Source of the DNA: Escherichia phage F2
Reading direction: 5' to 3' (one strand)
Sequence record: NC_054913.1
Length of the DNA stretch: 64,000 nt
The notes beneath the pieces were generated by a model. That model made no database searches. It was not told the DNA's origin and saw only the letters and a list, made by a program, of their open reading frames with translations. This document shows, piece after piece, positions 511-27,348 of the stretch (its first letter is position 1; each line of letters opens with the position of its first letter). The position numbers were made by a program, and so were the translations under genes.

Positions 511-1146
511 ATGAAAACTACTCCTATTACTATCGCTATTGACGCAATCATAAAACAAGCTTCTTCTTTGGCCGCTATGGCCAAAGTAATTAGTCAAAAC
601 CCTGCTCGTTATAATGCTATTCTAGAAACTCTTCGACGCCCAGGACTTAGTAATTATGAAAGCCGAGTAATTATTACAGGTGTTGGTAAGAATGCTAATA
701 TTGCAACTAAAGCTTCTGAGACATTTGCTTCACTCGGTATCCCGAGTATGTACTTGAACACTGGACATTATTCTCACGGTGATGCAGGATTCATTGCGCC
801 TAATGATGTGTTGATTCATATTAGTCGTTCTGGTAAAACTGAAGAAATGATAGGCGTGGCTAAGCATCTTAAAATGATTCGTCCGAACGTCAAACAGATT
901 CTGTTGCATTGTAACCCGGACATTCCACAAGAATACGAAGCTCTTTTTGATTATACGTTCTGTACAGGCATCGCAGTAGAGGTTGATGAGAATTCTCTGG
1001 CTCCGACCATGTCCACTACATTGTTGTTAGCGCTTATCGATACGTTTGCTATCAACCTTTCGTCTGAACGTGGATTTACCTCTAATGACTTCCTTAAGTT
1101 CCACCCTGGCGGTGCACTAGGTGCCATGTTACGAGGCGAACAATGA
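511..1146 (+). CDS. SIS-domain sugar-phosphate isomerase, KdsD/GutQ-like (arabinose-5-phosphate isomerase type, no CBS domains)
   Basis: ITGVGKNANIATKASETFASLGIPSMYLNTGHYSHGDAGF...HISRSGKTEEM...LAPTMSTTLLLALIDTF...FHPGGALG aligns motif-for-motif with the KdsD SIS domain (GMGKSG..FASTGTPS..HGDLG..ISNSGES..LAPTSSTT..SHPGGALG). Confidence 0.8.
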   Translation: MKTTPITIAIDAIIKQASSLAAMAKVISQNPARYNAILETLRRPGLSNYESRVIITGVGKNANIATKASETFASLGIPSMYLNTGHYSHGDAGFIAPNDVLIHISRSGKTEEMIGVAKHLKMIRPNVKQILLHCNPDIPQEYEALFDYTFCTGIAVEVDENSLAPTMSTTLLLALIDTFAINLSSERGFTSNDFLKFHPGGALGAMLRGEQ

Positions 1147-1327: not shown

Positions 1328-3013
1328 ATGAAAAAAGCTGTTATTCTTGGTGCTGGACTGGCAACTCGTTTGTATCCAATAACGCATCATATTCCTAAGG
1401 TGCTTGTTAACTATAAACAAGACACTATTCTGAGCAATTTGTATACAATTTATTCTGACCTTGGCGCAGATGAAATTATTGTAGTAGTTCATTCAAAATT
1501 TGCTGAAACTGTTCGAGCTTATTGTGAGCAAGAAGGGTTCAATGTGACTATTCGTACAGTTGATGAAGCGTATGGTTCTGCTTATGCTCTTGCTAAATTG
1601 CACAAAGATTTAGACGGCCATAATGTAATTGTTAACTGGTGTGATATTATTCCTGATTTTGGTTCATGGTCTTGGAATGTTAACGCAATCTATGTTAAGG
1701 GTGACGAATGTCGATATAATTTCGACGGTGAAAATATCACTAATGTAGGTTCAACAGGTGGTAATGTTGTAGGAATTTATCAGTTCAAAGACTGGGAATT
1801 CTATATGGGTTCTACTGATGAGGAAATTCATGAATACTGCAAAGGACGTGATTTCGTAGAATTCCTTTACGGCAGCGCATTCAATAAATCAGAGCTTATG
1901 AATCTAATTGATTTAGGTGATATGCCTAAACTTGAAAAAGCTCATGAAGTTCGTGAACTTAATCGTAGTTTTAATGCAGTTGAAATTGGTGAAGAAACTG
2001 TAACTAAATTCGCATTAACCGAACAGGGCCGAGCTCTTCAGAAAGATGAGATTTCATGGTATCTTAAAGTGAAATCAGATTCAGTTCCTCAGTTAGTTTC
2101 TGTTAATGAAAATAACTTTGAAATGGAACGCATTAAAGGTAAGCCGGCATTTGAATATATTAAATCCAAATCAAGTCTTGCTCGTCCACAAATTGTTGAT
2201 GCAATTTTAGATGCACTGAAATTCAGCACAGACACTTATTTTGTAAGTCCTGAAACTGTTCGTCGTGATTTCACTAAAGAATTCTATACTAAAGTTATTG
2301 ATCGTTGTGAAAGTATTCAACCATTGATTGATTCATTTGGTAAAATCACACATGTGAACTACACTAAGATCGGACGTCTGAAGCCAATGTTGAAACAAGC
2401 TTTAGAACACCTTATTCGTTATCATAACCGTTCTCAGGGACAGTACTCTGTTATTCATGGTGACCCGAACTTCAGTAATACTATGATTACTGATAACGGC
2501 GAAGTCAAGTTTATCGACCCTCGTGGATATTTTGGTGAAACCAAGATTTACGGGCCAAAATTGTATGATGAAGCTAAAGTGCTTTACGCTGTTTCAGGTT
2601 ATGATGAATTCAACGCTAATCCGACTTGGGGACAGTTTACTATTGATGAAACAACTTGTAATGTGACTATTAACATCAATCCATTAGTTTACAAATATGG
2701 AAAGATGAGTTCGTTTAACGAGTATCATCATTTGGCAGTGGCAATTATCTGGATTGCATTAGGTGGTTATTTCAAGAATAATCCACTTAAAGCGGTAGCC
2801 GCATATTATAAAGGTATGGAACTTCTGACTAAGCAATTACGTAATATGGGCCGTGTACTTCAAGACGGCTCTATTAGTTATGACGTAGCAGAACCTGTAA
2901 CGGCTACTCTGATTACAAAAAATCCTGGTAAATGGGTACTAACTGATAAAGAAACTGGTGTTTCCTATCGTCCAATCGGTGGCGATATCACTCATCAATG
3001 GGAACGAATCTAA
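1328..3013 (+). CDS. bifunctional sugar-1-phosphate nucleotidyltransferase (N-term) / APH-type sugar kinase (C-term)
   Basis: N-terminus ILGAGLATRL is the GxGTRL signature of RmlA/GlmU-type NDP-sugar pyrophosphorylases; C-terminal region has Brenner motif VIHGDPNFSN and IDPRG typical of aminoglycoside/choline-kinase fold. Confidence 0.7.
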   Translation: MKKAVILGAGLATRLYPITHHIPKVLVNYKQDTILSNLYTIYSDLGADEIIVVVHSKFAETVRAYCEQEGFNVTIRTVDEAYGSAYALAKLHKDLDGHNVIVNWCDIIPDFGSWSWNVNAIYVKGDECRYNFDGENITNVGSTGGNVVGIYQFKDWEFYMGSTDEEIHEYCKGRDFVEFLYGSAFNKSELMNLIDLGDMPKLEKAHEVRELNRSFNAVEIGEETVTKFALTEQGRALQKDEISWYLKVKSDSVPQLVSVNENNFEMERIKGKPAFEYIKSKSSLARPQIVDAILDALKFSTDTYFVSPETVRRDFTKEFYTKVIDRCESIQPLIDSFGKITHVNYTKIGRLKPMLKQALEHLIRYHNRSQGQYSVIHGDPNFSNTMITDNGEVKFIDPRGYFGETKIYGPKLYDEAKVLYAVSGYDEFNANPTWGQFTIDETTCNVTININPLVYKYGKMSSFNEYHHLAVAIIWIALGGYFKNNPLKAVAAYYKGMELLTKQLRNMGRVLQDGSISYDVAEPVTATLITKNPGKWVLTDKETGVSYRPIGGDITHQWERI

Positions 3014-3399
3014 TGCACCGTGTAGAAAACATGCTTAATCTTTGTTTTGATGTCGACGATTGTATAACAGAGTGGAATAACAATCGTGATTACGTGAACT
3101 TCAAGCCAGACGTCGAAATGGTGACTGCCATTAATGCCCTGTATGATGCAGGGCATACCATAACGCTTTACACTGCTCGCGGTATGAAGTCAGTCGGTCC
3201 TGGTCGTATAGCAATTGACATTCTCCCAAGTCTGATTCAGAACTTGGCAAACATTGGATTGAAGTACCATAATTTGCTAACACATAAACCAGTATATGAT
3301 TGGATTATCGACGACAAAGCTATGCGTCCTGACGAATTCAAAGCTCTTATGAATAAAGGCGAATTCGAAACATTTAAATCATATAAACCGAATCTATAA
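3013..3399 (+). CDS. HAD-superfamily phosphatase (small, GmhB/KdsC-like)
   Basis: HAD motif I LCFDVDDCIT, motif II LYTAR, motif IV WIIDDK; start chosen at ATG overlapping upstream stop (TAATG). Confidence 0.6.
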   Translation: MHRVENMLNLCFDVDDCITEWNNNRDYVNFKPDVEMVTAINALYDAGHTITLYTARGMKSVGPGRIAIDILPSLIQNLANIGLKYHNLLTHKPVYDWIIDDKAMRPDEFKALMNKGEFETFKSYKPNL

Positions 3400-3446: not shown

Positions 3447-4616
3447 ATGCAAAAAATGAATACCTTTAAAATCGGAACGAATTTTGATTTAGCTCTTCTT
3501 GATAAAATCGTAGAGCTCAATAAAACTTATCCTAATAGCTTGATAAACGAAGTATACGGCTCTACAAGAGAAATGGCTTTTGTAGCAGCCAGACCTGATT
3601 TTAGGCTTCCTGACGTTGACAAAAAGATGTTAGAAGATTACGTTAAACGTTGTAACGAATTAGGTATTTGCTTTAACTATACACTCAACACGATAAATCC
3701 TGGTTCAAAAAGAGAACTAGTTGAGTGGAAGAAGAAAGCTATTCAGGACTATGTTCAGTATCTTTGGTCAATAGGCGTATGGCGTATTACTATCGCTAAC
3801 CCTGTTGTTATGGAAATTGTTCGTGAAGTCAATAAAGACATTGAGATTGAAGTTTCAACAATTCTACATGTCGATGCTGTAACTCAAATCAAATACTTGC
3901 ATGACCAATATAATATCAAAAAGGTCTGCTGTGGAATTCATAAGAACCGTTCAGTTTCTTTCCTGAAGCGTGCAGCAGAGTTTTGTAATAAGAACAATAT
4001 AATATTTGAAGTTCTTGTAAATGAGTTCTGTTCTAATGCTGGTAAAGGGTATACAACACATTGTAGCTATCGTGACTCTTGCTATATTTTCCATAGCACC
4101 GATGTTACAGTAGATGATGCCAAATCCTTAAATGGATATCCAATGCAGCACTGTATTAAAGCTCGTGATACAGACCCATTTAACTGGTTGAGAACTCGTT
4201 TTGTTCGTCCTCAAGATTTGAAACTTTATAATGATATTGGTATCACTCAATTCAAAGTTTCAGGACGTACAGGTAGCACCGACTACATTTTGAAAGTTCT
4301 TGAAGCTTACGCTTCTGAAAAGTTTGAAGGTAATTTGTTGGAATTGTGGAAGCCTTTAGAGACCATTTTCACTCTTGAAAATGAGACTGAGTTTTCACAT
4401 ACGGTAAATATTGAAACCTCTTTGTTAGATGGCTTTTTAGAAAAAAGGTGGTTCAAACATCCAGATTTCGATTGTGCTAATGAAATCTGCGGGACGACGT
4501 GTACATATTGTGAAAGATATTATAAACGTCAGTTATCTAAAAATGGGTTATCAGAAAACTCTATATCTATTATTGATATAACTAACTCTGATGACGCTTT
4601 GAGGTACCCAGAATGA
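3447..4616 (+). CDS. Cys-rich protein of unknown function (possible metal/Fe-S enzyme) in sugar module
   Basis: 389 aa ORF, consistent coding frame; cysteine clusters EFCSNAGKGYTTHCSYRDSCY and C-terminal CANEICGTTCTYC; weak resemblance to U32-type TIM-barrel enzymes, not confirmable by eye. Confidence 0.55.
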   Translation: MQKMNTFKIGTNFDLALLDKIVELNKTYPNSLINEVYGSTREMAFVAARPDFRLPDVDKKMLEDYVKRCNELGICFNYTLNTINPGSKRELVEWKKKAIQDYVQYLWSIGVWRITIANPVVMEIVREVNKDIEIEVSTILHVDAVTQIKYLHDQYNIKKVCCGIHKNRSVSFLKRAAEFCNKNNIIFEVLVNEFCSNAGKGYTTHCSYRDSCYIFHSTDVTVDDAKSLNGYPMQHCIKARDTDPFNWLRTRFVRPQDLKLYNDIGITQFKVSGRTGSTDYILKVLEAYASEKFEGNLLELWKPLETIFTLENETEFSHTVNIETSLLDGFLEKRWFKHPDFDCANEICGTTCTYCERYYKRQLSKNGLSENSISIIDITNSDDALRYPE

Positions 4617-4894
4617 TTTCTAGAAAAACTTTTAACCACCAACTTAACGAAGAGATTTTGACTATTAAAATTAACAGCAACGAACAAATTCTTAAAAAGG
4701 CCCTTATGGGCCTGTTTGAAACTAAAGCGGCTAAAGTGATTAAAGAACCTGTTCAATTGTAATACTACGCTGATGCATTTCTTCATAGTGTTCTTGGAAG
4801 TATCGATGCTGAAGCTTTACGTTATATCAACATCGCTAAGAAATTCAAATAAGCTTTATGAATTGAGTATATAATAAATTGTATTGAGGTAAAC

Positions 4895-5611
4895 ATGGGA
4901 AAACATAACACAATGAAATATATTAAAGCCGCAGATTTTCAATCCGCATTTAAAGCTGTCAATCGTGAAATTTTAGAAAACCCGGAATTCGTTACTGATT
5001 CTCGTATTGGACGTTGTAATGAAATTGGGTCTATGACAGTAGTTGTTGATACCCCTTCATCATTCAAAATGACAGACCCACGTATTAATCGCATCTCTTA
5101 TGAATATGCTGAAGATTTCTGGAAATTTATGATTTCTGGTGGTACTGATGCAGAAGAAGCATTTAAGGCATATCCTAACGTTGCTAAATTTATTTCTAAA
5201 CCTAAATCAGATGCTTTGCCTGCAAACTTCAACACTTTCTACGGTCCACGAATTGCGGCCCAGTTACCAACTCTTCTAAAAGAACTTAAAGAAAAACCTA
5301 ACTCTCGAAGAGTTGTGTTCCAAATTCTAGAAAGTTCTGATCAGGCTTTGCTTGATTCAGACGAAACACTTGAATATCCATGTACTGACTCAGTGACTTA
5401 TTATATTCGTGATGGTAAGCTTTATACCCACTGTCATATGCGTTCTCAGAACTGTGCTGTTGTTATGCAGTTGGATTTTTATCTCCAAGGAAAATTACTT
5501 CATTATATCGCTAACGAATGTGGTGTAGAAGTTGGTGATTATACTCATACCATGGTAAGTGCCCATGTGTTTGAACGTGATTTTGATTATGTTAAAGGAT
5601 TCCTTGTCTAA
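4895..5611 (+). CDS. 42: dCMP hydroxymethylase (thymidylate-synthase superfamily)
   Basis: NSRRVVFQI...YPCTDSVTYYIRDGKLYTHCHMRSQNCAVVMQLDF parallels TS catalytic region (DSRRII...PCHxxxQFYVxDGKL...RSxD) but is distinct from td at 53514; syntenic with T4 gene 42; SD GAGGT upstream. Confidence 0.75.
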   Translation: MGKHNTMKYIKAADFQSAFKAVNREILENPEFVTDSRIGRCNEIGSMTVVVDTPSSFKMTDPRINRISYEYAEDFWKFMISGGTDAEEAFKAYPNVAKFISKPKSDALPANFNTFYGPRIAAQLPTLLKELKEKPNSRRVVFQILESSDQALLDSDETLEYPCTDSVTYYIRDGKLYTHCHMRSQNCAVVMQLDFYLQGKLLHYIANECGVEVGDYTHTMVSAHVFERDFDYVKGFLV

Positions 5612-6510
5612 TGGCTATTTTCCGCGTACCTATCTTGAGTATGCGGTCTTATGAAACTGGACAGTATGCTATCCTTAAGGATGGCAACTTCCAACTTCAT
5701 TTGCACCGTGCTAATCCGGGTGATGTGATTACATATCCACGTAATGCATCTGATATTAAAGAATGCGAACGTCTTTTCCCAGAATTTAAGTTTGTTCCAT
5801 TATGGTATAAAGATAACGCATATAACACTCGTAAATATTTCTGGTCTGAAAATGAATTTGTGGTTGATTCATTAATTGATTATTATGATTGTGATTTTCT
5901 AATCACAGATATCACTGGATATGACGGCAATTTTGACGTAGAATTCAATTTCAATATCACTGCAGACCCTAATAAACCACGTTTTTATATTGACGAATTC
6001 TTAAAAACCGACATGTTGTCTGTTAATCGTTCACTTCAAACTACTGTGTTGAATGAACGTCAAAAAGAAGTGCTGGTTAACGCAGGTGCAGATGGTAATA
6101 AGATTATCGTAACGCAGAAAGTTATACGTCCTTCCATCATGCAGCGTCTTGTAGGTGATTTGGCTCCTATTCATCTAGATGGTATTTTTCATCCATTTCG
6201 AATTAGTGACCCGTGCTATCGTTTTGAACAAGTGGTTGAATGTGCAATTCAATTAGGTCAACCGCTTTATATAACCGATCCAAATAATAGCTTCGACAGA
6301 AATAAGTATCCTGAAGAAGCGCTGATTCGAATTTTTAAACCAACTAAAACTGAGTACTATCAAATTCTTAAAGGACGTCCGAAGATTCAATACTTCGAAA
6401 ATCCTGAAGAAGTATTCCATCCAGGTCTTGGCGAGTTCATCTACTTTAATGCTTTAATTTCTTCGCCGTATAATATACCTAAATATGAAGATGTCGTAAT
6501 CGAGGAATAA
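5611..6510 (+). CDS. hypothetical protein occupying the T4 beta-glucosyltransferase position
   Basis: 299 aa ORF, start overlaps stop of gene 42 (TAATG); no motif I recognise; not similar to remembered T4 beta-gt. Confidence 0.5.
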   Translation: MAIFRVPILSMRSYETGQYAILKDGNFQLHLHRANPGDVITYPRNASDIKECERLFPEFKFVPLWYKDNAYNTRKYFWSENEFVVDSLIDYYDCDFLITDITGYDGNFDVEFNFNITADPNKPRFYIDEFLKTDMLSVNRSLQTTVLNERQKEVLVNAGADGNKIIVTQKVIRPSIMQRLVGDLAPIHLDGIFHPFRISDPCYRFEQVVECAIQLGQPLYITDPNNSFDRNKYPEEALIRIFKPTKTEYYQILKGRPKIQYFENPEEVFHPGLGEFIYFNALISSPYNIPKYEDVVIEE

Positions 6511-6511
6511 A

Positions 6512-7060
6512 ATGGCTAAAATTATTTTAGTAGATGGCCCGGATAATGCTGGTAAAACAACTTTCATTAATGACATAATGGAAATTAGTGAAAGATATGT
6601 AAAGATTGATTTCCCTAAACGAACAGTTGATGGACGTTTCGATGTTAAGTCTCGAAATGAAGTTGGCTGTTTCGAAACGATGTTGAATTATTTAGACCCT
6701 ACTAAGATTTATCTGTTAGACCGTGGATATATTAGTAACTGGGTTTATGGACGTATTCGACAAGATGCGGACTCGGTTCTTGACGTTTATGAACAGGATT
6801 ATGTTCGTCTTTGCCAAAACCATGATGTGTTCACAATTATTTTAACACGTAACGAAATGACTGAAAGTTTTGAAGACGACCTTATTACTTTGTCTTCATT
6901 CAGGTTTAATACAGTCATTTCGTATTTTGAAGAGTTTGCAATTCATAACGAAATCCAAACGTATCAATTACTTAATCATGATGGTGCTAACAAAGTTATA
7001 GGATTTAATGCAAGCGAACGTAATAATTTGATTACAGAAATTATCAAATGGGCTCGTTAA
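6512..7060 (+). CDS. P-loop nucleoside/nucleotide kinase-like protein (thymidylate-kinase fold)
   Basis: Walker A ILVDGPDNAGKTT at N-terminus, DRGY lid-like segment; resembles dTMP kinase/dNK family layout. Confidence 0.55.
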   Translation: MAKIILVDGPDNAGKTTFINDIMEISERYVKIDFPKRTVDGRFDVKSRNEVGCFETMLNYLDPTKIYLLDRGYISNWVYGRIRQDADSVLDVYEQDYVRLCQNHDVFTIILTRNEMTESFEDDLITLSSFRFNTVISYFEEFAIHNEIQTYQLLNHDGANKVIGFNASERNNLITEIIKWAR

Positions 7061-7078
7061 GAGCCTGTTTAAAGTTTT

Positions 7079-7106
7079 AAATGCTGTATAACCCTTAGTA
7101 TATAAT
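7079..7106 (+). promoter_or_regulatory. candidate MotA-dependent middle promoter upstream of uvsX (MotA box AAATGCTGTA + TATAAT)
   Basis: aaatgctgta 12 nt upstream of tataat, about 55 nt before uvsX start; matches T4 middle promoter architecture. Confidence 0.4.
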
Positions 7107-7159
7107 CGTCTTATCTTTTAAACATGAGTAAAATATAATGATGCCTATGGAAAAATACA

Positions 7160-8332
7160 ATGTCTGATTTAAAATCTCGTCTGATTAAAGCTTCTACTTC
7201 TAAAATGACTGCAGACTTGACTAAGTCTAAGCTGTTTAATAATCGTGATGAAGTCCCTACTCGTATTCCGATGTTGAATATTGCATTAGGTGGTGCACTG
7301 AATGCTGGGTTGCAATCAGGCTTAACTATTTTTGCTGCTCCTTCTAAACACTTTAAAACGTTGTTTGGACTGACCATGGTTGCAGCATATATGAAGAAAT
7401 ATAAAGATGCAATTTGTTTGTTCTATGATTCGGAATTTGGTGCTTCAGAATCTTATTTTCGTTCAATGGGTGTTGATTTAGACCGTGTAGTTCATACTCC
7501 GATTCAATCTGTCGAACAACTTAAAGTTGATATGACTAATCAGCTTGACGCGATTGAACGCGGTGATAAAGTTATTATCTTTATCGATTCAATCGGTAAT
7601 ACTGCATCTAAGAAAGAAACTGAAGATGCATTGAACGAGAAAGTTGTAGGTGATATGTCTCGTGCTAAGGCACTTAAATCTCTGTTCCGCATTGTGACTC
7701 CTTATCTGACTATTAAAGATATTCCATGTGTTGCAATCAACCATACAGCAATGGAAATCGGTGGATTGTATCCTAAAGAGATTATGGGTGGTGGTACAGG
7801 TATTCTTTACTCTGCTAACACTGTATTCTTTATCTCTAAACGTCAGGTTAAAGAAGGTACAGAATTGACCGGTTATGACTTCACGTTGAAAGCAGAAAAA
7901 TCTCGCACCGTTAAAGAAAAATCTACTTTCCCAATCACGGTTAATTTCGATGGTGGTATTGACCCATTCAGTGGCTTGTTAGAAATGGCAACTGAAATCG
8001 GTTTTGTAGTTAAGCCTAAAGCCGGGTGGTATGCTCGAGAATTCCTTGACGAAGAAACAGGCGAAATGATTCGTGAAGAGAAATCATGGCGTGCTAAAGC
8101 TACTGATTGTGTAGAATTCTGGGGACCGTTGTTTAAACACAAACCTTTCCGAGATGCAATTGAAACTAAATATAAACTAGGTGCTATCTCTTCTATTAAA
8201 GAAGTTGATGATGCTGTTAACGACCTTATTAATTGCAAAGCAACAACTAAAGTTCCGGTTAAAACTTCTGATGCTCCTTCTGCAGCAGATATAGAAAACG
8301 ACCTTGACGAAATGGAAGATTTCGATGAATAA
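7160..8332 (+). CDS. uvsX: UvsX recombinase (RecA-like)
   Basis: 390 aa; sequence MSDLKSRLIKAS...IPMLNIALGG...DSEFGAS... matches T4 UvsX throughout. Confidence 0.95.
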   Translation: MSDLKSRLIKASTSKMTADLTKSKLFNNRDEVPTRIPMLNIALGGALNAGLQSGLTIFAAPSKHFKTLFGLTMVAAYMKKYKDAICLFYDSEFGASESYFRSMGVDLDRVVHTPIQSVEQLKVDMTNQLDAIERGDKVIIFIDSIGNTASKKETEDALNEKVVGDMSRAKALKSLFRIVTPYLTIKDIPCVAINHTAMEIGGLYPKEIMGGGTGILYSANTVFFISKRQVKEGTELTGYDFTLKAEKSRTVKEKSTFPITVNFDGGIDPFSGLLEMATEIGFVVKPKAGWYAREFLDEETGEMIREEKSWRAKATDCVEFWGPLFKHKPFRDAIETKYKLGAISSIKEVDDAVNDLINCKATTKVPVKTSDAPSAADIENDLDEMEDFDE

Positions 8333-26247: not shown

Positions 26248-27348
26248 ATGAAAGTTATGTTTATCCCATCTCGTGCAGTCCCGTTTAATCCTGACCGTGT
26301 ACAAGGTGGCCTTGAAGCAGTACATTTAAATGTGTTGAAATATCTTGTGTCCATCGGCGCTGATATTGATTATATCGGCTTTGATAATGACACGTTTGGT
26401 GATTGGAAAGTTACACACCATCCTGTTGGTCATCTGACTAAATTCAGTCTAGGTATGAGTTATACTATGGCTCGTAAGATTGTTGAACTAGCCGGCATCC
26501 ATGAATACGATTTTGTTGTTACTATGGAACCGACTAAACTAACCGTTCAGGCAATTAAAGACGCAGGTCTCTCTAAAGTTCATAAGAATTTTATGGCAAC
26601 ACCATTTGAACCGGTATCTCGTGGCATTGTTCAAATTTGGGACCAGACTATTCAAATTCATAAGAATGGTGGTAAGAGTTATGCTCCTACTAAAGCCTTC
26701 CGTGAATTTGAACGCAAATATTGTTATATGACTTCAGGTCTGACTGACAAAATTGATTATGATTATTGGCGAGCAAATCCGTTGTTTGAAGCCGAAGATT
26801 ATCCGGTTATTTGTTTGAATGAGAAACCTGAAGTTCTTCCGGCGACTGATCTGATTATTAGTGCACAACGTTATGACACTAAAATGCGTCGCACTGATGT
26901 TGCTCTTGAAGCAATTAAAGCACTAGGCGAAAATGGTGTAGGATACTGTCCAAGCAAATGGGCACCACCAGCTAAATATCCTGTTATTATTGATGCTCCA
27001 CACAGTGAAATCATGGAACGTCTTAAAACAGCTAAAGCACTTATTAATACTTGTCCTGACACAGGTACAGTAGAGAATAGTTCTATTGAAGCCATCTCTA
27101 AAGGTGTCCCTGTAATCCAGTTAGTTTTTAAGGATTATCCTCATGCGACATTTGAATACGACCCAGATACTGTGCGTGTAGAAATTGATTCCTCTACTCC
27201 TAAGAAAGAAGTAGTTGCGCTTTACACAAAAGCTGTATTAGAATTCACTGATACATACGAAGCTCGAGTTAAACGTGCTGAAGCAGTATGGAAGAAGTAT
27301 AACCGAGATGCAGTTGTTGCGATGTGGGATAAAATCTTCACAGCGTAA
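26248..27348 (+). CDS. GT-B-like glycosyltransferase candidate (possible DNA sugar transferase)
   Basis: N-terminal VQGGLEAVHLNVLKYLVSIGADI and C-terminal TGTVENSSIEAISKGVPVIQ resemble GT4-family GG motif and E-x7-E donor-binding motif; located between 39 and rIIA. Confidence 0.55.
   Translation: MKVMFIPSRAVPFNPDRVQGGLEAVHLNVLKYLVSIGADIDYIGFDNDTFGDWKVTHHPVGHLTKFSLGMSYTMARKIVELAGIHEYDFVVTMEPTKLTVQAIKDAGLSKVHKNFMATPFEPVSRGIVQIWDQTIQIHKNGGKSYAPTKAFREFERKYCYMTSGLTDKIDYDYWRANPLFEAEDYPVICLNEKPEVLPATDLIISAQRYDTKMRRTDVALEAIKALGENGVGYCPSKWAPPAKYPVIIDAPHSEIMERLKTAKALINTCPDTGTVENSSIEAISKGVPVIQLVFKDYPHATFEYDPDTVRVEIDSSTPKKEVVALYTKAVLEFTDTYEARVKRAEAVWKKYNRDAVVAMWDKIFTA

What the first reader, a model, noticed from the sequence alone, without database searches (positions are those of the whole stretch)
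5611..7060. Beta-gt position occupied by an unrecognisable 299-aa protein plus a P-loop kinase
In T4 the beta-glucosyltransferase lies between 42 and uvsX. Here that slot holds a 299-aa ORF with no glucosyltransferase resemblance and a dTMP-kinase-like P-loop protein. These could be a second-step transferase (for example a di-sugar) and a modified-nucleotide kinase, or unrelated accessory genes.
Basis: inference. Interest (0 to 1): 0.6.

Follow-up and report, generated by a model that had tools for sequence, protein, structure and literature searches.

The report
Phage cytosine arabinosyltransferase and nucleotide kinase
The two genes are real and belong to the recently published pathway by which RB69-type phages replace cytosine with sugar-coated 5-hydroxycytosine: one is most likely the enzyme that attaches the first arabinose, the other a thymidylate-kinase-like nucleotide kinase, and neither has yet been shown to work in a test tube.

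Summary
The window is an RB69-type Mosigvirus (99.5% identical to phage PNJ-6, 97.8% to RB69). Both ORFs exist as described: 5611-6510 (299 aa) and 6512-7060 (182 aa). They are packed tightly behind the thymidylate-synthase homologue (4895-5611) and sit where T4 has beta-gt.

Gene distribution points to the first step, not the second. This family is present once in every arabinosylating phage. A second glycosyltransferase type (window 26248-27348) is absent, single or double in phages with one, two or three arabinoses.

Neither gene has a T4 homologue. Verdict: already known as predictions, and not yet demonstrated biochemically in the literature I could read. In passing, a U32 protein plus chorismate mutase may provide an oxygen-independent hydroxylase route.

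The parts
5611..6510 (+). 299-aa GT-B-fold glycosyltransferase. It is the intact orthologue of RB69 gp46:47, DLP3 gp79 and Thanatos TH1_063. Inferred role: base-proximal (first) arabinosyltransferase for 5-hydroxycytosine.
6512..7060 (+). 182-aa thymidylate-kinase-fold P-loop nucleotide kinase, orthologue of RB69 gp45 and DLP3 gp78. Inferred role: kinase for 5hodCMP or a derivative of it.
4895..5611 (+). ThyA-like 5hodCMP synthase, orthologue of RB69 gp48. It makes the acceptor base and is translationally coupled to the glycosyltransferase.
   Evidence: Pfam PF00303. PDB 9iqc/9ir2 (HY126) at E 3e-161. Only 25% identical to T4 gp42. Biochemistry described in Lee et al..
1328..3013 (+). Bifunctional sugar kinase and nucleotidyltransferase (AfhE-like, RB69 gp52:53). 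It makes the UDP-arabinofuranose donor.
   Evidence: Pfam NTP_transferase plus an APH-like kinase domain. The HY126 AfhE activity is summarised in Lee et al..
2998..3399 (+). HAD phosphatase (AfhF-like, RB69 gp51) of the UDP-Araf pathway.
   Evidence: PHROG 1238. NCBIfam capsule biosynthesis phosphatase at 5e-13. Role described in Lee et al..
511..1146 (+). Arabinose-5-phosphate isomerase (RB69 gp55).
   Evidence: ORF listed. The RB69 annotation calls it arabinose 5-phosphate isomerase. Role described in Lee et al..
26248..27348 (+). 366-aa GT4-like glycosyltransferase (RB69 gp3 orthologue; HY126 structures 9iqz/9ir0). Inferred role: second arabinosyltransferase.
   Evidence: PDB match at E 5e-251. 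Found only in Mosigvirus (one copy) and Acinetobacter phages (two copies). Assigned in Lee et al..
3447..4616 (+). U32-family Fe-S protein (RB69 gp50) in the same cluster. Its role is unknown; I suggest an O2-independent hydroxylase.
   Evidence: Pfam Peptidase_U32 at 6e-11. At least 82% identical in all 220 phage records. A chorismate mutase gene lies next to it in two phages. It takes the place of the ThyA-like gene in L052, L054 and L056.

Best explanation
The two genes are the glycosyltransferase and kinase parts of a portable three-gene core (hydroxylase, glycosyltransferase, kinase) that produces O-glycosylated 5-hydroxycytosine DNA.

Proposed pathway:
1. dCMP is hydroxylated to 5hodCMP by the ThyA-like enzyme. 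This step is shown in the literature.
2. The 182-aa Tmk-fold kinase phosphorylates 5hodCMP to the diphosphate. This is inferred. In T4-like phages it would overlap with the gp1-type dNMP kinase.
3. After NDK action and replication, the 299-aa GT-B enzyme transfers the first D-arabinofuranose from UDP-Araf onto the 5-OH of 5hoC in DNA. The enzyme is most similar in fold to retaining GT4 enzymes, which fits the alpha linkage at the base. This step is inferred.
4. The 366-aa glycosyltransferase at 26248-27348 then adds the second arabinose.

For: First-step assignment:
- The family occurs once in each of 347 phage records from Escherichia, Klebsiella, Serratia, Acinetobacter, Shewanella and others.
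- The GT366 type is absent from Serratia and Shewanella phages, where LC53 and Thanatos carry one arabinose.
- GT366 is single in Mosigvirus, which carries two arabinoses.
- GT366 is double in Acinetobacter phages, where DLP3 carries three.
- A distant family member also hits 14 Rhizobium phage records; per Lee et al., phage RL38JI's proximal sugar is galactose. That suggests the family is defined by the acceptor, not the sugar.

Linkage. ThyA-like, glycosyltransferase and kinase genes lie together in 44/44 informative IMG/VR loci. This includes contigs with no arabinose-activation genes within 6 kb and a 356-kb and a 122-kb contig. The gene order varies (JS98 has kinase-ThyA-GT), but the linkage persists. 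The junctions are overlapping or near-overlapping.

Kinase. It has a Tmk fold and invariant catalytic motifs. In contigs where a U32 protein replaces the ThyA-like gene, the kinase and glycosyltransferase are still present, next to an NTP pyrophosphatase. This ties the kinase to the base rather than to the sugar.

Literature. Lee et al. 2026 made the same assignments from structure prediction, and the Durham-collection paper calls them putative sequential arabinosyltransferases.
Against: - In the literature I could read, no biochemical activity has been shown for either protein.
- Lee et al. saw no arabinosylation of 5hoC-DNA by individual DLP3 glycosyltransferases with UDP-Araf or UDP-Arap. 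[quoted passage not shown]
- RB69's gp1-type kinase (gp159) already converts 5hodCMP to 5hodCDP in vitro, so the need for a second kinase is unexplained.
- The family is acidic (median pI 5.3, net charge -11). T4 beta-gt has pI 9.0.
- The GT4 EX7E motif appears to be replaced by H270...Y278. This rests on my reading of alignment A1 and the secondary structure, so it is inference.
- The Thanatos homologue TH1_063 was reported to be a UDP-xylose pyrophosphorylase.
- I could not read He et al. 2026 or Mahler et al. 2025.
Confidence: 0.55

Rival explanations
1. Pre-replicative glycosylation. The 299-aa glycosyltransferase arabinosylates the mononucleotide (5hodCMP). The Tmk-like kinase is the dedicated kinase for the bulky arabinosyl-5hodCMP, which gp1 cannot handle. 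The polymerase then incorporates an already glycosylated dNTP, and only the second and third sugars are added on DNA.
For: - The glycosyltransferase and kinase stay adjacent even in the most distant relatives.
- gp1-type kinase already handles 5hodCMP, so a second kinase calls for a different substrate.
- The first step could not be reconstituted on 5hoC-DNA, whereas the third step works on DNA.
- Lee et al. explicitly leave this possibility open.
- The glycosyltransferase is acidic but has a few invariant basic residues in the acceptor domain: R12, K23, R33 and R74.
Against: - To my knowledge, every characterised phage DNA glycosylation is post-replicative.
- Negative in vitro results are weak evidence.
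- The co-occurrence is equally well explained if hydroxylase, kinase and transferase are all simply required together.
- T4 alpha-gt is also mildly acidic.
- T4 42 and beta-gt are adjacent as well, although beta-gt acts on DNA.
Confidence: 0.12
2. The kinase is an ordinary or auxiliary dTMP/dNMP kinase. It boosts nucleotide supply, has no specific link to the modified base, and is merely carried along in the cluster.
For: - It has a Tmk fold and the closest structures are bona fide dTMP kinases.
- Many phages encode their own Tmk.
- Several records annotate it as 'thymidylate kinase'.
Against: - The family is tiny: 45 representative clusters at E<=1e-10 among 1.84 billion proteins.
- It is far from Pfam and TIGR Tmk models (TIGR00041 15.6 bits against a cut-off of 83).
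- It is found with the glycosyltransferase and hydroxylase in 44/44 loci.
- No homologue was found in the T4 regions examined, and its phage record set mirrors the glycosyltransferase's and excludes T4-type phages.
Confidence: 0.12
3. The 299-aa protein is a UDP-pentose pyrophosphorylase that makes the sugar donor, as reported for Thanatos TH1_063. It would not be a transferase.
For: In vitro, His-tagged TH1_063 plus UTP plus xylose-1-P gave a UDP-xylose peak. TH1_063 is the 48%-identical, syntenic homologue.
Against: - The fold is GT-B, not the nucleotidyltransferase fold.
- The signature G-x-G-T-R-x-x-P nucleotidyltransferase motif and the Pfam NTP_transferase domain are in the neighbouring 561-aa protein.
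- The HY126 orthologue of that 561-aa protein, AfhE, is reported to be the UDP-arabinose pyrophosphorylase.
- The control described for the Thanatos assay was a no-enzyme reaction, and no mutant or host-enzyme control was mentioned in the passages I read, so a co-purifying host GalU-type enzyme or a sample swap is not excluded.
- The family also occurs in modules that have no sugar-activation genes.
Confidence: 0.04
4. The kinase acts on DNA, phosphorylating a modified base in the polymer as 5-hmdU DNA kinases do, or it acts on a non-nucleotide substrate.
For: - Some distant relatives are fused to an HhH-GPD (DNA glycosylase-type, base-flipping) domain inside a similar cluster.
- P-loop kinases of thymidine-hypermodifying phages do act on DNA (my own knowledge of Lee et al. 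2021).
Against: - The best structural matches are nucleotide monophosphate kinases, and the NMP-site motifs (FPxR, DR, SxxxY) are conserved.
- The final product is a plain O-glycoside, which needs no phosphorylated intermediate.
- The HhH-GPD hit is marginal (26.7 bits against a cut-off of 26.2).
Confidence: 0.05
5. One reading: the 299-aa protein is the second-step (di-sugar) transferase.
For: RB69-type DNA does carry a disaccharide.
Against: - It is present in mono-arabinosylated phages (Thanatos, LC53) that lack any other candidate.
- The copy number of the GT366 type, not of this family, follows the number of extra sugars.
Confidence: 0.03

Closest known systems
RB69 gp46:47, DLP3 gp79 and Thanatos TH1_063 (putative alpha-arabinosyltransferase 1; Lee et al., NAR 2026)
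   Different: The window copy is an intact 299-aa ORF. The RB69 reference record splits it into ORF047c and ORF046c. In what I could read, activity remains unproven for every member.
T4 beta-glucosyltransferase (CAZy GT63)
   Same: Same genomic slot between the ThyA-family gene and uvsX. Both have the GT-B architecture and both decorate a C5-hydroxylated cytosine.
Retaining GT4-type GT-B enzymes (sucrose-phosphate synthase 6kih, BshA, MshA, PimA, WaaG) and T4 alpha-glucosyltransferase
   Different: No Pfam GT family is matched by any of 79 members. hhalign against the phage's own GT4-like enzyme gives probability 0.2%. The protein is shorter than typical GT4 enzymes, and the EX7E motif is apparently not conserved (my inference).
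Thymidylate kinases, especially type I (vaccinia 2v54, human, yeast)
   Different: It scores far below the family thresholds. The P-loop Arg/Lys position is an invariant Asn, and DRY reads DRG. The substrate is unknown. It is restricted to phages that make glycosylated 5hoC.
T4 gp1 deoxynucleoside monophosphate kinase
   Same: It plays the analogous role in the T4 pathway (hmdCMP to hmdCDP). The RB69 orthologue phosphorylates 5hodCMP.
   Different: It is an unrelated family that occurs in 1635 phage records. The phage has both kinases, so one of them is either redundant or has another substrate.

Membership tests
GT-B fold glycosyltransferases | Two Rossmann-like domains with an interdomain cleft, and structural similarity to solved GT-B enzymes | tested here: met
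GT-B fold glycosyltransferases | Transfer of a sugar from an NDP-sugar to an acceptor | not testable with these tools
   In what I could read, no activity is published for any member. The DLP3 gp79 assays were negative.
CAZy GT4 / Pfam Glycos_transf_1 | Significant match to the family profile (PF00534, PF13692 or PF13439) | tested here: not met
   None of 79 family members matched any GT family, even at E<=10. hhalign against the phage's GT4-like 366-aa enzyme gives probability 0.2%.
CAZy GT4 / Pfam Glycos_transf_1 | EX7E motif in the C-terminal domain | tested here: inconclusive
   The equivalent helix start reads H270-P-G-L-G-E275-F-I-Y278, and H270, P271 and G272 are invariant. The mapping relies on secondary structure only, not on a superposition.
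T4 beta-glucosyltransferase family (GT63) | Sequence or close structural similarity to T4 beta-gt | tested here: not met
5hoC base-proximal glycosyltransferase family (RB69 gp46:47 type) | Orthology with RB69 gp46:47 and DLP3 gp79, and a position next to a 5hodCMP synthase that carries the D169N signature | tested here: met
   The region is 97.8% identical in nucleotides to RB69. Synteny is shown. The adjacent ThyA-like protein reads MRSQN where E. coli ThyA has QRSCD, by my reading of the translation, and it matches the HY126 enzyme 9iqc at 3e-161.
Thymidylate kinase (Pfam PF02223 / TIGR00041) | Profile match above the curated threshold | tested here: not met
   There is no PF02223 hit for the window protein. 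TIGR00041 scores 15.6 bits against a cut-off of 83. Relatives reach 17-27 bits against a cut-off of 27.
Thymidylate kinase (Pfam PF02223 / TIGR00041) | Tmk fold with P-loop, DR(Y/H) motif and NMP-site motif | tested here: met
Thymidylate kinase (Pfam PF02223 / TIGR00041) | Phosphorylation of dTMP | not testable with these tools
   I found no assay reported for RB69 gp45 or any homologue.
Sugar-1-phosphate nucleotidyltransferase (the claim made for TH1_063) | Nucleotidyltransferase fold with the GxGTRxxP motif | tested here: not met
   The fold is GT-B. The motif and the Pfam NTP_transferase domain are in the 561-aa neighbour at 1328-3013.

The most novel reading that the evidence does not exclude
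The first arabinose is attached before replication. The 299-aa enzyme would glycosylate 5hodCMP, and the Tmk-like kinase would exist because the resulting arabinosyl-5hodCMP needs its own kinase. The phage polymerase would then build DNA from a pre-glycosylated dNTP. To my knowledge this would be the first pre-replicative nucleotide glycosylation in a DNA hypermodification pathway.
Probability: 0.12. Interest if true: 0.75.

Novelty: already known. Interest (0 to 1): 0.3.

Why it matters
The genes belong to the pathway that makes arabinosylated 5-hydroxycytosine DNA. This modification shields many therapeutic-candidate phages (Mosigvirus and phages of Klebsiella, Acinetobacter and Serratia) from restriction enzymes and some CRISPR systems, and it exposes them to other defences.

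In the papers I could read, the first arabinosylation step and the role of the second kinase are the two parts of the pathway that have not been reconstituted. This analysis sharpens three points:
- The 299-aa family is the acceptor-defining, base-proximal transferase, whichever sugar is used.
- The kinase belongs to the base branch of the pathway, not the sugar branch.
- The published pyrophosphorylase assignment for the Thanatos homologue is unlikely.

None of this changes the overall picture that has already been published.

Tried and rejected
- **Sequence-level family assignment of the 299-aa protein.** Pfam, NCBIfam, PDB sequence and profile searches, and hhalign against T4 alpha-gt, T4 beta-gt and the phage's own GT4-like enzyme all gave nothing.
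- **Promoter and terminator scan of 4500-7250.** The counts did not exceed the shuffled controls, so no operon boundaries could be drawn.
- **Primary papers.** He et al. 2026 (Nat Chem Biol) and Mahler et al. 2025 (Cell Host Microbe) are not held. Searches for the Afh gene names gave nothing useful. The HY126 GenBank record carries no gene names.
- **Transposon-mutagenesis preprint.** It has no essentiality data for these genes.
- **Charge and pI as a clue to the acceptor (DNA or nucleotide).** The family is acidic, but so is T4 alpha-gt, so this is not decisive.
- **Do non-T4-like carriers such as Rhizobium phages lack a gp1-type kinase?** The tblastn summary does not list them, so this is unresolved.
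- **Whole-genome check of T4.** Only T4 1-50,000 and 73,500-77,500 were examined locally. Absence from the rest of the genome rests on the collection-wide record counts.
Full report
**1. What is there**

The window is an RB69-type Mosigvirus. Positions 4800-7200 are 99.5% identical to Escherichia phage PNJ-6 and 97.8% identical to RB69, and 152 phage records cover at least 80% of that stretch.

The gene order on the + strand is as follows:
- arabinose-5-P isomerase (511-1146)
- a 561-aa nucleotidyltransferase/kinase (1328-3013)
- a HAD phosphatase (2998-3399)
- a U32-family protein (3447-4616)
- a small ORF (4613-4762)
- a thymidylate-synthase homologue (4895-5611)
- the 299-aa ORF (5611-6510)
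- the 182-aa ORF (6512-7060)
- uvsX (7160-8332)

The three genes from the ThyA-like gene to the kinase are joined by TAATG and TAAAATG junctions, the second preceded by GAGGA. In T4 the corresponding stretch is 43 - imm.1 - imm - 42 - beta-gt - segA - uvsX, so the positional observation is correct.

Both ORFs are genuine genes. They have strong PHROG matches and hundreds of homologues. The substitution pattern is dominated by synonymous changes.

In the RB69 reference record the 299-aa gene is split into ORF047c and ORF046c. The cause is one extra T, which maps to window position 6154. Lee et al. also attribute the split to a sequencing error.

**2. The premise has moved**

Lee et al. (NAR 2026, PMC13326640) show something different. 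RB69 and Acinetobacter phage DLP3 carry mono- and poly-arabinosylated 5-hydroxycytosine, with the sugar ether-linked directly to C5. The ThyA homologue (RB69 gp48) is a flavin- and O2-dependent 5hodCMP synthase.

The window protein matches the solved HY126 enzyme (PDB 9iqc) at E 3e-161. It is only 25% identical to T4 gp42.

**3. The 299-aa protein**

At sequence level it is unrecognisable:
- No Pfam or NCBIfam family is matched by it or by any of 79 relatives.
- No solved structure matches its profile.
- hhalign against T4 beta-gt, T4 alpha-gt and the phage's own 366-aa GT4-like enzyme gives probabilities below 1%.

*Which step.* tblastn finds the family in 347 phage records, always as a single copy and across all arabinosylating lineages. 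The 366-aa glycosyltransferase of the window (26248-27348) is the protein solved as 9iqz/9ir0. It occurs in only 210 records: Escherichia and Shigella Mosigvirus with one copy, and Acinetobacter phages with two. There are no Serratia, Shewanella, Klebsiella or Enterobacter records.

The published modifications follow that count:

| Phage(s) | Arabinoses per cytosine | GT366-type copies | Source |
|---|---|---|---|
| LC53, Thanatos | one | none | |
| Bas46, RB69, NP | two | one | |
| DLP3 | three | two (gp76, gp77) | |

A distant member of the family also hits 14 Rhizobium phage records. According to Lee et al., the proximal sugar of Rhizobium phage RL38JI (Pootjesviridae) is galactose, and its ThyA homologue also makes 5hodC. 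The family thus appears to be defined by its acceptor rather than its sugar.

*What is not shown.* Lee et al. obtained no activity from individual DLP3 glycosyltransferases on 5hoC-DNA. [quoted passage not shown] The Thanatos study reported that TH1_063, the syntenic 48%-identical homologue, is a UDP-xylose pyrophosphorylase. I consider this unlikely, for two reasons. The fold is GT-B. The nucleotidyltransferase domain and motif are in the 561-aa neighbour, whose HY126 orthologue AfhE is reported to be the UDP-arabinose pyrophosphorylase.

**4. The 182-aa protein**

The residues invariant across 23 homologues are the P-loop G9-x-D11-N12-x-G14-K15-T16, F34-P35-K36, G41-R42, D70-R71, S75, Y79, R113 and D122-D123. 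The family profile aligns with vaccinia, yeast and human TMPK over the P-loop and the FPxR motif.

It is nevertheless far from the Tmk family models. The family is very small: 45 representative clusters at E<=1e-10 among 1.84 billion proteins. tblastn finds it in 342 phage records, with almost the same genus counts as the glycosyltransferase.

**5. Linkage**

I scanned 52 IMG/VR loci retrieved with the glycosyltransferase profile. Of these, 46 carry a clear glycosyltransferase homologue. Every one of the 44 that has sequence on the relevant side also carries the kinase, and the same holds for the ThyA-like gene: 44/44 each. The four apparent gaps are loci cut off at the glycosyltransferase gene.

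The gene order varies. JS98 and the Klebsiella and Proteus phages place the kinase upstream, yet the linkage persists. Fourteen or so loci have only ThyA-like, glycosyltransferase and kinase genes, with no arabinose-activation genes within 6 kb. A 122-kb contig has flavodoxin-like reductase - ThyA-like - GT - kinase as a compact block, and a 356-kb contig has the trio together with arabinose genes.

The kinase therefore belongs to the base branch of the pathway, not the sugar branch.

The puzzle is that RB69's gp1-type kinase (gp159) already converts 5hodCMP to 5hodCDP in vitro, and was the kinase used to get 5hodC into E. coli DNA. gp45 was not tested. Three possibilities remain:
- The Tmk-like enzyme is the module's own 5hodCMP kinase, partly redundant in T4-like phages. 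This is my preferred reading.
- It acts on a different substrate, such as arabinosyl-5hodCMP. This is the novel reading.
- It is a generic dTMP kinase.

**6. The proposed refutation fails**

Neither protein has a homologue in T4 1-50 kb, which contains the syntenic region (best E 3.8 and 0.61). T4-type gp1 occurs in 613 Escherichia phage records, 502 records overall at 95% identity or more to T4. The two proteins occur in only 175 Escherichia records. They are thus absent from the glucosylating T-even group.

**7. Verdict**

Both gene assignments are already in the 2025-2026 literature as predictions, so the novelty rating is 'already known'.

What remains open is biochemical. The activity of the 299-aa glycosyltransferase and the level at which it acts are undetermined, as is the substrate of the second kinase.

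**8. Seen in passing**

The U32-family gene of the cluster is at least 82% identical in all 220 phage records that have it. It is far more conserved than its neighbours. It is absent from all Acinetobacter phages and from JS98-like phages.

A type II chorismate mutase gene (Pfam CM_2, above threshold) lies immediately downstream of it in Erwinia phage Virsaitis27 and in Thanatos. In three non-T4-like viral contigs the arrangement is NTP pyrophosphatase - Tmk-like kinase - GT299-like - U32, with no ThyA-like gene within 6 kb.

From my own knowledge, the characterised non-protease U32 proteins (RlhA, TrhP, UbiU/V) are O2-independent, prephenate-dependent hydroxylases. I therefore suggest that this protein is an anaerobic route to 5-hydroxycytosine. 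Lee et al. list it as 'sugar or heterocycle reductase' and do not discuss it. I found nothing on this idea in the accessible literature.

Noticed in passing
window 3447-4616 (+); also L052:6954-8048, L054, L056, L062:3492-4661, L002:6462-7598: The U32-family protein (RB69 gp50, annotated 'peptidase') is at least 82% identical in all 220 phage records that carry it. It is absent from Acinetobacter and JS98-like phages. In three non-T4-like contigs it occupies the place of the ThyA-like hydroxylase, next to an NTP pyrophosphatase, the kinase and the glycosyltransferase. From my own knowledge, known non-protease U32 proteins are O2-independent, prephenate-dependent hydroxylases, so it may be an anaerobic route to 5-hydroxycytosine.
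   Followed up: partly
L062:4658-4999 (Erwinia phage Virsaitis27) and L002:7595-7849 (Thanatos TH1_066); window 4613-4852: A type II chorismate mutase gene (Pfam CM_2; 44.6 and 34.7 bits against a cut-off of 27) lies directly downstream of the U32 gene in two distant phages. Chorismate mutase makes prephenate. In RB69 the same slot is ORF049c (79 aa, no Pfam hit). In the window the slot has an in-frame TAA at 4760-4762, which leaves a 49-aa ORF whose ATG overlaps the U32 stop (ATGA).
   Followed up: partly
window 6154 versus RB69 NC_004928 (L001:6811-7711): The RB69 reference record has one extra T relative to the window and other relatives. This splits the glycosyltransferase gene into ORF047c and ORF046c. 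The same record also splits the 561-aa gene into ORF053c and ORF052c.
   Followed up: yes
L058:1-523, L059:6739-7293, L064:7068-7613: In distant modules a flavodoxin-like or FMN-reductase gene sits beside the ThyA-like 5hodCMP synthase. That fits its reported flavin dependence. None was evident among the cluster genes I examined in the window, where a host flavin reductase may serve instead.
   Followed up: no
P0179 (L064:6001-7074), P0180; also P0185 (L065:127-1092): Distant relatives of the kinase are N-terminal domains of 314-357-aa proteins. In two of them the C-terminal part gives a marginal HhH-GPD (DNA glycosylase superfamily) hit. P0179 lies in a cluster with dCMP deaminase, dUTPase/DCD, a ThyA-like gene, an FMN reductase, a SIS isomerase and an AfhE-like gene.
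   Followed up: partly
Literature: PMC12838424 (Thanatos TH1_063 = L002:4995-5897): The published in vitro assignment of the GT-B homologue as a UDP-xylose pyrophosphorylase conflicts with its fold and with the AfhE assignment in HY126. A contaminating host enzyme or a swap with TH1_060 seems possible.
   Followed up: partly
window 3447-4616, C-terminal part of the translation: The U32 protein ends with a Cys-rich stretch, DFDCANEICGTTCTYCERYY, which contains a CX3CX2C pattern. A second Cys cluster (FCSNAGKGYTTHCSYRDSC) lies mid-protein. Both suggest Fe-S binding (translation).
   Followed up: no
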